This document shows, one piece after another, positions 2,102-60,875 of a stretch of DNA of 64,000 nucleotides (its first letter is position 1; each line of letters starts with the position of its first letter). The notes under the pieces are model-generated. The model worked only from the letters and a program-made list of their open reading frames with translations. It was not told the origin of the DNA and did no database searches. The position numbers were made by a program, and so were the translations under genes. The DNA is from Octopus sinensis (taxonomy: Eukaryota), in contig NC_042998.1 in the NCBI RefSeq assembly GCF_006345805.1, positions 202,058,001 through 202,122,000 of the forward strand, read 5' to 3'.

Positions 2102-2155
2102 TCCCACTGATGAGACAGAGTATATTTATGCAATGCCAGAAATCTAGATCAGGGA
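2102..2155 (+). ncRNA. Type I hammerhead ribozyme-like motif in a short element ending in (TA)n at ~2310
   Basis: tccc(a)-CTGATGA(2107-2113)-weak stem II-GAAAT(2139)-CTAG palindromic loop-ATC-(a)ggga; putative cleavage triplet AUC 2148-2150; stem I tccc/ggga. Confidence 0.6.
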
Positions 2156-2484
2156 ATATCCAATAATTTTTTGCTAGTTTATATGTCTATTTGTCTTTTC
2201 TTCTGGTGCTATATGAATACTTCATGTGGTTTTAGAGTTACGTTTCGACTGCTGTCTCTAGCATGGTGGTATCTTTTAAATACCCTTAATTATAATTTTA
2301 AAAATTTATATATATATATATACACGTATATGTATGATTGTATGTATGCATGAATGTATGTATCTATCTATCTATCTACTTATGTATCCATGTATGTATG
2401 TATGTATGTATGTATGTATCAATCTATCTATATATCTATCTATCTATCTATCTCCTTCTCTCTCTCTCTATATATATATATATA

Positions 2485-2602
2485 TCACGTGATCACGTGA
2501 CCGACTAGGCTATCAGATGCTGTTACACATCGCTGGTCACAATGCGCTTCGCATTGTTTTAGCCTTCGAATTACGCCACCCCGCTGGCTAAGCGAGCAGG
2601 CC
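2485..2602 (-). mobile_element. SINE 3' tail fragment (same tail as the SINE at 61181-61415)
   Basis: Reverse complement matches 61299-61415 (ggcctgctcgcttagccagc...ggtcacgtgatcacgtga). Confidence 0.85.
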
Positions 2603-3959
2603 CTCTCTCTCGCTCTCCTCTCTCTCTCTCTCTCTCTCTCTCTATATCTATATATATATATAATATATATATATATATATAACGGTGTTTCTCGTCGTGA
2701 AAGCGTGATTGAGCGCTTAGTAAATTAAGGCGGTAATAATGTTCCATGGACACGTACGCGTCTCTTGAGGCCTGCTGGTTCTTTGGAAGCATTTTGGCAA
2801 ATTGGACAAATTTACTCCAGTGGTTGTGGATCATTACTACGTCTTTTCTAAAACGGACGTTAAAGCCTACTTTGCTCCGAGCATCAACATCACAATGGCA
2901 GGTAAGGTTTACATTGACAGGGGCGGCGTTTTTCCAACGTGCTTTCTTGGTCTGGTCTTAGCATAATCTACCTAGATTCTTCCCTTTTCCTTAACCAATC
3001 AATGTGCCGATTGCTCAAGCCTACGGAAAGAGCAGTAACTCAAATTTATTAAAATAAAGAAATATCCAGTGACGATTATTTACGCCCATGACTTATACAT
3101 ACACAAACACATACTCACACATACAAACACACATAAATACGCACACACACGTATATGTATATACATACATATTTGTGTGTATATATATATAAATTTATAT
3201 ATATATATATGTGTGTGTGTGTGTGAGAGTGCGTGTATGTGTGTATATATGTATTATGTGTTTGTGTAAATATATATAAGTATGTGTATATATATGAATA
3301 TTCATATATATATATATATATATATATAGGTAAACAGTAAAAATAATTACAGACATGGACAAGAACATGAAACACCACAGAGACGACACAAGAACCACAG
3401 GACGGGACATTCGAAGCCCTCAGTCATCAGTCAAGAACCAGATCATCTTAGCAATTTCGGCTGATTAATCTTGAGATTGCTCCGATATGGCCAGCCCGCC
3501 AAGGGAAATCTAAGCCAAGCGCATTAGATCCCCTGGAAGAAAGCTTCGAATGTATACAACACGAGGACGGAAAACGAACGAAGTACACGAACAAAAATAC
3601 AGAATACGTGACACCAATAAGAATACAAAAACGTAAAAACAATAACGGTAAAAATAAAAATAAACAACAAAACAAAACCAGGACGTAGGACAAGGGTCTT
3701 TCGACAGGACGAGTTGAGTATGGGGCTGGCTTGTGAAGTTGTGCCTAATGCCGCGGGGAGACGAACAAATACGTGTTGCTTCTGCGACTGCTGAAACGAA
3801 AAGAGCGCTCACAGCGGCTAGCGGTCACGTGAGAACAAAAGACAGGAGAAAGGGACAGATGAAAAGAGAGAGAAGGTGGACGAGGGAGGAGAAGAAAGAG
3901 ACAGATCGAGGGGGCTGGAGGTGAGAGAGATAGAGAACGTAGAAGGGGGGGGGGGGAAA

Positions 3960-4220
3960 TATAATATTATTAGAGACAAAACCACTATTTTGCAAAACAA
4001 ACAAGGAAAGACTTAATCAATACAAGAAACAATTGTAGTGGCGGTTTTTTTTTACTTTTTATTAAAATTTTATGTATTGATTAAGTCTTTCCTTGTTTGT
4101 TTTGCAAAATAGTGGTTTTGTCTCTAATAATATTATATAATATTTTACTATAAAATTGGATTTAATCCTAAATCTGATTTTTTCCCTGTAAATTTGGATT
4201 TATATTCCCTAATATTTATT
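3960..4220 (+). mobile_element. Short (TA)n-tailed element with a 5' inverted duplication and the 3' half of a hammerhead
   Basis: 3960-4025 is the reverse complement of ~4073-4138; the spacer begins GAAAC-AATT-GTA (4026-4037); the element runs into (TA)n at ~4220. Confidence 0.7.
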
Positions 4221-4293
4221 ATATATATATATATTATATATATATATATATATATATATATTATATAATATATATATATATATATATATATAT

Positions 4294-4520
4294 ATTATTG
4301 GTGAATTGAAGAAATGGAGCTGAACGCAGATGCGTTCAGCTCCATTTCTTCAATTCACCAATAATGTTTTAATTTCAATTATCCGCACCAACGCACGGTT
4401 GCAACGCCAGATGGTTGTACCTCCAACCGTGCTGTTCACTGCTGTGATTTTTGCTACTAAGGTATCGGTTAAACTTTTGATTAATCTACTACAAGATTAT
4501 TCATCTTTCTATTTCACATA
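4294..4520 (+). repeat. Short element between (TA)n tracts with a perfect 35-bp-arm hairpin at its start
   Basis: 4294-4328 and 4331-4365 are exact reverse complements with a 2-nt loop (GA); flanked on both sides by (TA)n. Confidence 0.85.
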
Positions 4521-57930: not shown

Positions 57931-58220
57931 TATATATATATATATATATACATATATATATATATATATATATATACATATATATATATATATATATATA
58001 TATATACATATATATATACATATACATATATATATACATATATATACATATATATACATATAATATATATATACATATACATATACATATATATATATAT
58101 ACATATACATATATATATATATATATAATATACATATATATATATATATATATATATACATATACATATATATATATATATATATATATATATATATATA
58201 TATATATATATATATATATA
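57931..58220 (+). repeat. (TA)n/(TATACA)n microsatellite, target of the PLE
   Basis: Directly visible; one of dozens of (TA)n/(CA)n tracts in the window. Confidence 0.95.
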
Positions 58221-60112
58221 ATCAAAGAGGCCGATAAAGGGAGTGCTGTTGTCTTAATGGACACGACATTTTACATAACTTTGGTACTTTCTATGCTGGA
58301 AGACACAACATACTATGAAAAGGCACAAAACTACAGTCAACAAAAAATAATGAGGGAACTAAAATCTATATTAAACCCATACAAAGCAGGGCTCACCGAC
58401 AAAGAATATGATTATATGACCAATTTCACAAGTAAAACTAGCCAATTCTACGGTATACCTAAGATCCACAAAAGTGAAAAAATAAGCAACGCATGCAAGA
58501 TAGCTACAGACAAAATAATTAAAGTCCCTAATCCTAATGACCTCAAATTGAGACCCATAATAGCAGGTCCCGCATGCGAAACCCACCGCCTCAGAAACTT
58601 TTTAGACACCCTGTTAAAACCACTCCTCAAACATGTCAAAAGCTATATAAGGGACGACTTAGATATGCTCAATCACCTACCGAATACTATAAACAAAAAC
58701 ACCATACTGGTATCCTTCGATGTAGTCAACCTCTACTCCAATATCCCCCACAACCTAGGACTAGAGGCAATCCAATTCTGGCTAGTGAATCACGCCAACG
58801 AACTACCACACCGCATCAAAAAAGAATTTGTGATAGAAGGGGTCAAATTCATCCTGGAAAATAACTTCTTCGCCTTCAATGACAACTTCTACCGACAAAA
58901 ATCGGGGACTGCGATGGGTACACGAATGGCCCCCTCCTTTGCCAACCTAGTCATAGGATACCTAGAGATCAGTCTGTATCGTAAGGTTCTAGAAAGATAT
59001 GGCAGCCCTTTCTCCATCTACATAGAAAACAACTGGAAGAGATATCTAGATGACTGTTTTATCCTTTGGCATAAAAATATAGAAAAACTCATAGAATTCC
59101 AGAAAATTTTAAACGGACTGGACGTAAACATCCAATTCACGATGGAATATAGCCAACAACAACTCCCCTTCCTCGATATCCTCATTAAGAAAGCTAATAA
59201 TATAATAGAAACAGACATATACTATAAGCCTACAGACTCTAAGCAATATTTTCCATTCAATTCATGCCACCCCAGACACACCAAGATGAATATCCCCTTC
59301 AATCTAGCAAAAAGGATATGCACTATAGTCTCTAACGCAAACACCAGAGACACACGACTACAAGAACTAAAAGATACCCTAATGACCAGGAACTATCCAC
59401 CTTCACTTATTGACAAGTGCATTCAACGTGCCCTTCAACTTAACATCAAGGAACTGAGACATCCCAAATCAAAGAAAAACTTACAACCAAAAGCCTTACC
59501 ATACATCTCCACACACAACCCTCTCAATAACGAAGCCTTCGACACCATCCTCCACAACATACCCCTCCTAAAAAAAGACCACAGAATGAACACAATCCTC
59601 CAAACACACACGATCATAAAAAGCAAAAGACAGCCTAGATCCATGAAAAGTCTCCTTACACAAGCCCGAATTCACTCCTCAACACAGAAGCCGACAGTAA
59701 AAAAATGTGGAAGACCCAATTGCGGGATATGCGACTATCTAATGAGGGATCAGAGTTCTCCTTCAAGCAGGGACAACGGTTTACAGTGAAAAGCAACTTC
59801 ACATGTGCTTCGGAGAACCTAATATACTCACTAACCTGCTCCGGGTGTCAAGAGCAGTACATAGGCCAAACAAAAAATGGTTTGCGTAAACGAATGGCCC
59901 TGCACAGATCCCAGATAAAAATTCCCCAAAACAGAAAAATAGCTTTTAGCCAACACATAGATACTTGCGCCAACAAAAAAACACCAAACTTCAGAATTTT
60001 CCCCCTCTACCAATTTAGGGACAATACAACCTCGAGACAACGAATAAGTAAAGAAAATCTCTTTATTACAAAATACAAGCCACTTCTTAACGGGTCTACG
60101 ACAAATAATTAA
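58221..60112 (+). CDS. PLE reverse transcriptase-GIY-YIG endonuclease (N-truncated, one frameshift at ~59742)
   Basis: [76 protein letters not shown], then in the next frame [25 protein letters not shown]...[14 protein letters not shown]. Confidence 0.95.
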
Positions 60113-60244
60113 TATACCTCAACTTTAGAATAAAAGAAAAAAATATATATACACACACAAATATTACACTCCATAGAATCCATTACTAATCAGCCCCTTC
60201 ATAGCTAAACTTACACCCATTCATATTCTCCCTTCTCTGTTTTT

Positions 60245-60482
60245 TTCTTCTTCTTCTTCTTCTTCTTCTTCCTCTTCTTCTTCATCATCATCATTATCAT
60301 CATCATCGTCGTCATCATCATCACCACCATCATCACCACCATCTTCTCCTTCTCCTCCTTCTTCTTCATCATCATCATTATCATCATCATCGTCGTCATA
60401 ATCATCACCACCACCACCATCGTCATCTTCTCCTTCTCCTTCTCCTTCTCCTTCTCCTTCTTCTTCTTCTTCTTCTACTTCT
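60245..60482 (+). repeat. (CTT)n/(CAT)n/(CTCCTT)n compound microsatellite in the PLE 3' region
   Basis: Directly visible. Confidence 0.9.
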
Positions 60483-60837
60483 CCACCCCCTACCCCTTAA
60501 CTTTGTCACTAATGTTTTTTAGTATAACACCTACGCTAATTCTATAAACAAGCCTGTCAATATAAATATTCTCCTGAATTGAACTGAGACTGCCAGCCGC
60601 CACTGACCATTCAAAATACGACCATCAGGGCACTCCCAGATTCTCCCATCCCCCTTTCCCCACCAGCCTTCTTCCTCTACTACCCTTCCAAGAACTCACA
60701 ACGACCTCCGACACACAAGTGCAAACAAGGGAGTCAGAGAAAGGCAGAATGCCACTTAAATCTGAACACTACTATAGAAATATTCTTTTAAAAAAACTTT
60801 TCTTCTAATTTTTCTAAATTTAATTATTTAATCGTTA

Positions 60838-60875
60838 CAGTTGAAAAGGTCTCAAAATGACCGAAACCGGTACTG
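60838..60875 (+). ncRNA. Minimal type I hammerhead ribozyme of the PLE (U3-A8 variant)
   Basis: cag-TTGAAAA-ggtc-tcaaaat-gacc-GAAA-CCGG-TA-ctg; stems I and II perfect; palindromic loop III as known for PLE minimal hammerheads. Confidence 0.85.

What the first reader, a model, noticed from the sequence alone, without database searches (positions are those of the whole stretch)
2102..60875. Many unrelated short hammerhead-ribozyme elements embedded in (TA)n, next to a hammerhead-bearing PLE: candidate retrozyme-like system
Seen: about a dozen type I hammerhead-like motifs in 64 kb (2102+, 4026+ half, 4636-, 7661-, 9400-, 17990-/18875+, 36289-, 37207-, 40768-, 41237+, 53525+, 54307+ and its mirror, 60838+). 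Most lie in mutually dissimilar non-coding segments 50-300 nt upstream of a (TA)n tract. Most have a self-complementary loop III (CTAG, AATT, GATC, GTAC, ATAT, CCGG). Established: PLE pseudo-LTRs carry minimal type I hammerheads with palindromic loop III that are thought to cleave as dimers, and animal non-LTR retrozymes are non-autonomous hammerhead repeats proposed to use PLE proteins. Inference: this genome hosts a diverse radiation of (TA)n-targeted ribozyme retroelements mobilised by elements like the one at 58.2 kb. Some may instead be 5'-truncated PLE 3' ends. I cannot tell from here whether these families are already described.
Basis: partly seen in the sequence, partly recalled or inferred. 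Interest (0 to 1): 0.85.

Follow-up and report, generated by a model that had tools for sequence, protein, structure and literature searches.

The report
Ribozyme-tipped Penelope stubs, two retrozymes
The hammerhead (self-cutting RNA) motifs in this window are real, but most are leftover tail ends of ordinary protein-coding Penelope-type jumping genes, and only two belong to small protein-free repeats that likely borrow those genes' enzymes; both kinds are already described.

Summary
Of 15 flagged sites, 14 carry hammerhead motifs (5 intact here, 9 damaged or cut short but intact in their family); 4636- is not one. They fall into 12 genomic repeat families ending in (TA)n. Walking each family upstream shows six (60838, 7661/37207, 4026, 9400, 36289, 41237) run into reverse-transcriptase and/or GIY-YIG coding sequence of Neptune-type or Hydra-type Penelope-like elements: they are 5'-truncated stubs, a published situation. 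Two families close on themselves without an ORF: a young 593-bp head-to-tail unit (17807-19262; arrays of 2-5 units, two fixed 3' ends) and an older 468-bp unit (2102). These are non-LTR retrozyme-type elements. Four families are unresolved; three of them extend at least 0.7-1.5 kb upstream. Nothing ties the retrozymes to the element at 58.2 kb. Departures from print: stem II of 57-104 nt in six families, and a ~200-nt end module shared by several ribozyme repeats with different hammerheads. Cleavage, circles and the mobilising partner are untested. The scan has already noted similar retrozymes and long-stem hammerheads many times on other DNA of this genome.

The parts
17807..19262 (.). Family F: one fold-back insertion of a 593-bp ORF-less hammerhead unit; each arm is about 1.1-1.3 head-to-tail units; both ends in (TA)n
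17990..18090 (-). Intact type I hammerhead, stem II region 70 nt, palindromic helix III; predicted cut at 17996
18876..18975 (+). Intact type I hammerhead, stem II region 69 nt; predicted cut at 18969
1765..2306 (.). Family A: fold-back copy of an older 468-bp ORF-less closed unit; hammerhead 2102-2155+ has a stem I mismatch in this copy
3959..4211 (+). Family B: fold-back stub of a young coding Hydra-type PLE with a 3' UTR of several kb; only the 3' half of the hammerhead (4016-4041) is present
4556..4667 (-). Family C: 3' tail only, no hammerhead in this copy; the family's hammerhead (stem II region 103-104 nt) lies further upstream; link to coding sequence likely but not shown
7558..7770 (-). 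Family D: 5'-truncated 3' end of a coding Neptune-type PLE; minimal hammerhead 7661-7690 (CCGACGA core, no loop III)
9240..9640 (-). Family E: 3' end of a coding Hydra-type PLE; damaged hammerhead 9401-9484, stem II region 57 nt
36136..37182 (-). Family G: last 1.05 kb of a coding Hydra-type PLE; hammerhead 36291-36377, stem II region 60 nt, loop III palindrome mutated in this copy
37183..37318 (-). Second family D fragment joined directly to the G copy; hammerhead 37209-37240 has lost its 3' stem I strand
40679..40810 (-). Family H: stub truncated at the 5' edge of its hammerhead (40765-40810); long copies extend at least 1.5 kb upstream; no protein found
41188..41560 (+). Family I: old 3' end of a coding Hydra-type PLE; decayed hammerhead 41236-41320, stem II region about 60 nt
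53480..53735 (+). Family J: old, decayed hammerhead-bearing end; 5 genomic matches; unresolved
54024..54600 (.). Family K: fold-back insertion; hammerheads 54081-54205- (decayed) and 54306-54407+ (stem II region 76 nt); family extends at least 0.7 kb upstream; unresolved
58221..60928 (+). Family L: 5'-truncated young Neptune-type PLE (RT 58221-59786; endonuclease in another frame 59639-60109; 3' UTR) between (TA)n tracts
60838..60875 (+). Hammerhead of family L with U3-A8 in place of C3-G8, the same in all 30 copies fetched

Best explanation
The window is a (TA)n-rich landing area where at least six families of protein-coding Penelope-like retrotransposons have left truncated 3' ends that carry their hammerhead, alongside two protein-free hammerhead repeats that are likely copied by the same kind of enzyme. 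Shown: the hammerhead lies 50-300 nt from each element's fixed 3' end; copies are truncated or folded back at variable 5' points; six families continue upstream into RT and/or GIY-YIG sequence; the 593-bp and 468-bp units close on themselves with no ORF. Inferred from published PLE work: the endonuclease nicks (TA)n, RT starts at one of two fixed internal sites of the RNA and usually stops or switches strand early, so any short copy keeps the 3' hammerhead. Inferred for the 593-bp unit: a multimeric transcript self-cleaves, likely through dimeric pairing of the palindromic helix III, the monomer likely circularises, and a Hydra-type PLE protein would copy it round more than once, giving 1-5 unit arrays that end 190 or about 295 nt past the cut site rather than at it.
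For: Coding link: L in the window and 25 of 30 loci; D, same-strand endonuclease upstream with no (TA)n tract between in 6 of 8 long loci; B, own RT and/or EN in 6 of 12 long loci; G, EN directly upstream in L215/L200/L205 and a full-length copy; I, same-strand EN upstream in 5 of 25 loci, contiguous to the hammerhead in L371 and L380; E, EN in 2 of 3 upstream regions. (TA)4+ within 60 nt of the query 3' end: L 30/30, D 30/30, H 25/25, B 24/25, G 24/25. Upstream inverted arms in 11 of 12 families, e.g. F 16/30, G 13/25. F: same-strand repeat within 1.5 kb in 24 of 30 loci; arrays of about 2.3-5.2 units in 6 of 6 regions on different contigs; 40 of 41 distinct (TA)n-ending tracts stop at one of two sites, 22 and 18; longest stop-to-stop frame 46 aa. 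A: 468-bp period in L098, tail running into the hammerhead upstream region in 4 of 30 loci. A strict scan of all fetched loci gave 214 distinct hammerheads in 49 stem-I groups against 1 in the reversed sequences. F relatives show compensatory changes in stem I, at the base of stem II and in the helix III palindrome (L115, L332). Literature: PMC4209133, PMC8557442, PMC11167929, PMC7229834.
Against: Four families (C, H, J, K) were not tied to either class. Searches score only the best 40 candidates, so a rare coding parent of F or A, or ORF-less derivatives inside the coding families, cannot be excluded. The Hydra-type RT and EN had no significant Pfam match; their assignment rests on motifs, with no tree. 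In E, one of the two linking loci (L523/L455) has a later insertion between EN and hammerhead. (TA)n ends are less regular in old families (I 9/25, C 11/25, A 16/30, J 1/5). Two fixed ends and tandems also occur in coding PLEs copied from linear tandem transcripts, and hammerhead mutants did not impair insertion by PAc in vitro (PMC11167929), so a circular template is not required. 8 of 9 predicted Xenopus retrozyme dimers did not cleave in vitro (bioRxiv 10.64898/2026.07.22.740005).
Confidence: 0.85

Rival explanations
1. One reading: all or most motifs are independent short non-coding ribozyme retroelements mobilised by elements like the one at 58.2 kb.
For: Most copies of most families are short; F and A are ORF-less; most H copies begin within a few nt of the hammerhead 5' edge.
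Against: Six families extend into coding PLEs; C, H and K extend at least 0.7-1.5 kb; the F unit shows no similarity to family L.
Confidence: 0.07
2. F and A are mobilised by PLE proteins from linear multimeric transcripts; the hammerhead is a passenger or only trims transcript ends, and no circle is involved.
For: PAc inserts from unprocessed RNA and hammerhead mutants do not change insertion (PMC11167929, passages); array ends do not coincide with the cut site.
Against: Hammerhead structure is kept by compensatory changes while the flanking unit diverges to 73-82%; circles are shown for coral, mussel and axolotl retrozymes (PMC7229834).
Confidence: 0.35
3. F arrays are satellite DNA grown locally by unequal crossover from a solo PLE end and spread by duplication.
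For: Head-to-tail units 96-99% alike; this route is proposed for vertebrate retrozymes (bioRxiv 10.64898/2026.07.22.740005, discussion).
Against: Arrays are short, lie on many contigs with unrelated flanks, end at two fixed sites in (TA)n and often have inverted 5' arms; 1 of the 30 hits had an evident duplicate flank (L055/L056).
Confidence: 0.08

Closest known systems
Dispersed minimal hammerheads of truncated Penelope-like elements (Cervera and De la Pena 2014, PMC4209133; parts 1-2 of 4 read)
   Same: Thousands of dispersed type I motifs in many unrelated families, mostly single and attributed to truncated PLEs; pairs on opposite strands 100-700 bp apart; palindromic helix III; U3-A8 core variant.
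   Different: Helix II there is up to 7-8 bp; here six families have a 57-104 nt stem II region. No cephalopod passage was seen in the parts read.
Hydra-clade PLEs, including Hydra-1_Obim of Octopus bimaculoides (Craig et al. 2021, PMC8557442; section 11, passages, supplement part 2 of 59 and search hits)
   Same: C-terminal GIY-YIG without CCHH, CxCX5C linker, RWK and DKT motifs, (TA)n preference, 3' hammerhead; the T...T flanking of stem II in the supplement's table recurs in families C, E, H and K.
   Different: Published Hydra elements are generally under 3 kb with stem II plus loop of about 10-25 nt; B and G are about 4.5-6 kb or more with 1.2-4 kb 3' UTRs, and E, G, I have 57-61 nt stem II regions. 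The Hydra-1_Obim hammerhead matches none of the window families by eye.
Neptune-clade PLEs (PMC8557442, passages)
   Same: Families L and D: DKG motif, CX4CxxC linker, two cysteines between GIY and YIG, microsatellite targets.
   Different: No tree was built, so Nematis is not excluded; L has a U3-A8 core and D a CCGACGA core.
Metazoan non-LTR retrozymes (Cervera and de la Pena 2020, PMC7229834, passages and discussion; Li, Clavereau and Pollet 2026, bioRxiv 10.64898/2026.07.22.740005, parts 1-3 of 5)
   Same: Family F: ORF-less low-GC tandem unit with one type I hammerhead per unit, dispersed, proposed PLE mobilisation.
   Different: Clear PLE insertion footprints (two fixed 3' ends in (TA)n, fold-back 5' ends), a 69-nt stem II region, and an end module shared with other ribozyme repeats; cleavage and circles untested. 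The search retrozyme + cephalopod listed only PMC8557442.

Membership tests
Non-LTR retrozyme (family F) | Head-to-tail units, each with a complete type I hammerhead, at least two consecutive | tested here: met
   24 of 30 loci with a same-strand repeat; arrays to about 5.2 units. The window copy has one hammerhead per arm.
Non-LTR retrozyme (family F) | No protein-coding capacity; small unit; GC under 45% | tested here: met
   593-bp period; longest stop-to-stop frame 46 aa; GC 34.7%
Non-LTR retrozyme (family F) | Dispersed copies at unrelated loci | tested here: met
   2973 first-look candidates, 40 scored, many contigs; distinct flanks in 6 of 6 regions
Non-LTR retrozyme (family F) | Expressed and accumulating as circular RNA | tested here: inconclusive
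   Only contig assemblies of runs guessed to be RNA were available, with no control stretch
Non-LTR retrozyme (family F) | Self-cleavage of the transcript | not testable with these tools
   needs in vitro transcription
Non-LTR retrozyme (family A) | ORF-less unit that closes on itself | tested here: met
   468-bp period; longest frame 63 aa; 4 of 30 loci span the junction
Non-LTR retrozyme (family A) | [quoted passage not shown] | tested here: not met
   No second same-strand hammerhead unit within 1.5 kb in the 30 loci; A works like a decayed retrozyme but is not filed as an active one
Hydra-clade PLE (B, E, G, I) | CxCX5C linker before a C-terminal GIY-YIG lacking CCHH | tested here: met
   Seen in translations of B, G, I, E
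Hydra-clade PLE (B, E, G, I) | RWK and DKT motifs in RT | tested here: inconclusive
   G has RWK and NKT, B has KWK and DKT; RT of E and I not recovered
Hydra-clade PLE (B, E, G, I) | Insertion in (TA)n and a 3' hammerhead | tested here: met
   B 24/25, G 24/25, E 17/25, I 9/25; hammerheads
Hydra-clade PLE (B, E, G, I) | Placement in the Hydra clade by RT phylogeny | not tested
   no reference proteins were available to the tools
Neptune-clade PLE (L, D) | DKG motif, CX2-5CxxC linker, cysteine pair inside GIY-YIG | tested here: met
   Translations (L; D: L421, L423)
Neptune-clade PLE (L, D) | Placement by RT phylogeny, separating Neptune from Nematis | not tested
   no tree built

The most novel reading that the evidence does not exclude
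Several ORF-less ribozyme repeats in this genome (F, the stub at 60960-61160, and arrays of about 554 and 567 bp seen in other loci) carry different hammerheads but share one ~200-nt module that spans both insertion end sites. This module is the cis signal by which a single Hydra-type Penelope protein recognises and starts copying a family of circular RNAs, and the long stem II is a functional arm for protein binding or dimer control. That would give a defined retrozyme-enzyme pair that can be rebuilt in vitro.
Probability: 0.3. Interest if true: 0.55.

Novelty: new member of a known kind. Interest (0 to 1): 0.3.

Why it matters
The bulk of the finding repeats a published pattern. Its practical value is twofold: very short 'unknown' or SINE-like repeats with hammerheads in this genome are mostly PLE stubs and should be annotated so; and size-limited hammerhead descriptors and Rfam miss the long-stem II forms (10 of 28 multi-copy groups have a stem II region over 55 nt). 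The young 593-bp family, with exact end sites and a shared end module, is a good substrate for the open question of which enzyme moves animal retrozymes and whether circles are the template.

Tried and rejected
Rfam search: no hammerhead among the 150 best of 277 matches shown. A first scan with stem II limited to 45 nt missed most motifs. The first upstream walk for E used a segment that belongs to a neighbouring element (1 of 25 loci held E). A K anchor fell in an inverted arm. The coding element beside K in L498 is family G, not K. Endonuclease hits near A (L101, L114), I (L124), K (L166) and E (L443) were dropped because (TA)n tracts separate them from the element. The idea that H is a 135-bp stand-alone element was dropped: 6 of 30 loci share upstream sequence, up to at least 1.5 kb. 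The motif at 52003+ was rejected as a mariner remnant (recognised from recall, no call). RNA: no holder on record as RNA was listed; F lies in contigs of four runs guessed to be RNA, but no control stretch could be laid, so nothing is concluded on expression. No coding partner of F was found among the fetched loci. Upstream loci for C were only partly seen (4 small regions). Literature searches; the O. vulgaris repeat paper PMC13282606 (passages) has no occurrence of hammerhead or ribozyme in its main text; its library and the bioRxiv supplements were not seen and may hold these families.
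Full report
Setting. The window lies in a 2.7-Gb animal genome, is 34% GC and is crowded with (TA)n tracts. I take it to be octopus-like from recall of a common SINE and from earlier scan notes; no call names the organism. 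The element at 58221-60928 encodes RT (PF00078) and, in another frame, GIY-YIG (PF01541).

Observation. A strict type I descriptor finds 5 intact in the window (7661-, 17990-, 18876+, 54306+, 60838+); hits with palindromic helix III number 7 against a mean of 0.19 in 100 shuffles. The half-motif with a palindromic loop is 8 against 0.5 in 200 shuffles, while CTGANGA alone is at background. Nine further sites are damaged or truncated here, but the majority sequence of their homologs restores core and stems. That check is independent of structure, since the copies were picked by sequence. 4636- fails: it has no GAAA, and its core-like word lies in sequence with no homolog among the loci. 13 of 14 real sites are within 300 nt of a downstream (TA)n, against 24% of background positions; the sites were not chosen blind. 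Rfam showed no hammerhead among the 150 best of 277 matches.

Families. Each site was searched in the own genome. Eleven of 12 families gave 292-2973 first-look candidates, of which 40 were scored; J gave 5. Copies end at fixed 3' sites in (TA)n (L 30/30, D 30/30, H 25/25, B 24/25, G 24/25; fewer in old families: K 17/25, E 17/25, A 16/30, C 11/25, I 9/25, J 1/5) and often have inverted 5' arms. This is the insertion layout described for PLEs (PMC8557442, passages).

Six families are ends of coding PLEs. L is coding in the window, and 25 of 30 loci hit RT or EN. D extends at least 440 bp upstream in 25 of 25 loci and reaches a same-strand Neptune-type endonuclease, with no (TA)n tract between, in 6 of 8 long regions. 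B runs about 4 kb upstream at 98% identity into its own RT and/or EN in 6 of 12 long regions. G meets its EN about 1.1 kb upstream, and a full-length copy was recovered. I has a same-strand EN upstream in 5 of 25 loci, contiguous to the hammerhead in two. E reaches an EN in 2 of 3 upstream regions, one interrupted by a later insertion. B, E, G and I have the CxCX5C linker and lack CCHH, as defined for the Hydra clade (PMC8557442 section 11). That paper's supplement lists an Octopus bimaculoides Hydra element with (TA)n preference and a hammerhead. Against: Pfam gave no significant match for the Hydra-type RT or EN, and no tree was built. Endonuclease hits separated from an element by (TA)n were dropped (L101, L114, L124, L166, L443).

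Two families are ORF-less closed units. F (17807-19262) is one fold-back insertion of a 593-bp unit. 24 of 30 loci hold a same-strand repeat. Six of six 10-kb regions hold arrays of about 2.3-5.2 units at 96-99% identity with unrelated flanks. 40 of 41 distinct tracts that end in (TA)n stop at one of two sites about 104-111 nt apart, and the longest open frame is 46 aa. Neither end is the predicted cut site. A (2102) is older (84-90% identity) and has a 468-bp period; 4 of 30 loci show its 3' tail running into the region upstream of the hammerhead, but no two complete units in a row were seen.

Four families are unresolved. H copies mostly start at the hammerhead's 5' edge, yet 6 of 30 loci share upstream sequence, up to at least 1.5 kb, and no protein was found 5 kb further up in two. 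K extends at least 0.7 kb. C extends at least 1.1 kb, with a Hydra-type RT fragment abutting on the other strand in 1 of 4 regions. J has 5 copies.

Mechanism. Shown: fixed 3' ends in (TA)n, variable 5' truncation or fold-back, hammerhead 50-300 nt from the end, coding or closed anatomy as above. From published work: a PLE protein nicks AT-rich DNA and starts reverse transcription at two internal RNA sites, which produces the one-sided tail (PMC11167929, passages); minimal hammerheads with palindromic helix III are thought to act as dimers (PMC4209133). Inferred: early termination leaves stubs that always keep the hammerhead, which explains a dozen motifs in 64 kb. Inferred for F: multimer self-cleavage, circularisation and repeated copying by a borrowed PLE protein, as proposed for retrozymes (PMC7229834, discussion). 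A linear tandem template remains a serious rival, because hammerhead mutants did not impair PAc insertion in vitro. The partner is more likely Hydra-type than the Neptune-type element at 58.2 kb: F shares the six-base helix III palindrome and long stem II of families C, E, G and I, whereas L and D have 12-15 nt stem II regions and two- to four-base palindromes, and F matched none of the 30 L loci except through a separate neighbouring stub. This is a resemblance, not a test.

What differs from print. Stem II regions of 57-104 nt occur in C, E, F, G, I and K and fold as hairpins (for five of them); the Hydra table in the PMC8557442 supplement has about 10-25 nt, and its longest entries, flagged as deviating, about 50 nt. 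A scan of all fetched loci gave 214 distinct hammerheads in 49 groups against 1 in reversed sequence; 10 of 28 multi-copy groups exceed 55 nt. Relatives of F at 73-82% identity keep stem I, the base of stem II and the helix III palindrome through compensatory changes. Several repeats with different hammerheads, including arrays of about 554 and 567 bp, share with F a ~200-nt module spanning both end sites at 71-84% identity; it may be the protein-recognition signal, but no coding element carrying it was found. The U3-A8 core of L (30 of 30 copies) is a published variant (PMC4209133). The search retrozyme + cephalopod listed only PMC8557442; 'elongated stem II' had no occurrence in the 15 papers listed; PMC13282606 does not mention hammerheads in its main text. 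PMC3088659 (passages) notes that a U-U mismatch can open stem II. Supplements of the bioRxiv preprint and the repeat library of PMC13282606 were not seen.

Earlier scan notes. Look-ups by place returned at least 15 notes on other DNA of this genome describing similar retrozymes, fold-back stubs and long-stem hammerheads; a look-up with the F unit itself found nothing. They are unchecked and were used only as leads; one pointed me to Hydra-1_Obim.

Verdict. Real, but mostly the known trail of truncated Penelope-like elements, plus one young and one decayed retrozyme-type family. New members of known kinds; interest 0.3.

Noticed in passing
window 60960-61160 (-): A further stub, 96% identical to a hammerhead-bearing copy in L386, that shares the end module of family F; it sits right after the coding element's 3' (TA)n.
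   Followed up: partly
L526:345-1669; L430:5980-6609: Other head-to-tail hammerhead arrays (periods about 567 and 554 bp) with short stem II and the same end module as F.
   Followed up: partly
   Followed up: partly
window 4296-4520: Small fold-back stub of another family whose long copies (L101, L314) carry a Hydra-type endonuclease and a long-stem hammerhead.
   Followed up: partly
window 37183-37318 / 36136-37182: A family D fragment is joined directly to a family G copy with no (TA)n between, suggesting a template switch or a deletion.
   Followed up: no
family H loci L466-L495: 5' truncation and fold-back points cluster within about 10 nt of the hammerhead's 5' edge, often as near-perfect palindromes; unexplained, possibly RT stopping at the long low-complexity tract upstream.
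   Followed up: partly
window 23941-24429 (+): Mariner transposase remnant (PF17906, E 2e-17).
   Followed up: no
window 58221-60109: The window copy of the coding element has RT and endonuclease in different frames, although its last 429 nt are 99-100% identical to 39 other copies.
   Followed up: no
L433:700-5050 (-): ORFs that look like a Maverick/Polinton-type element (ATPase- and capsid-like, by recall) beside a family B copy.
   Followed up: no
window 18475-19270: Differences between family F and contigs of runs guessed to be RNA are mostly A>G; could be editing or copy variation, no DNA control.
   Followed up: no
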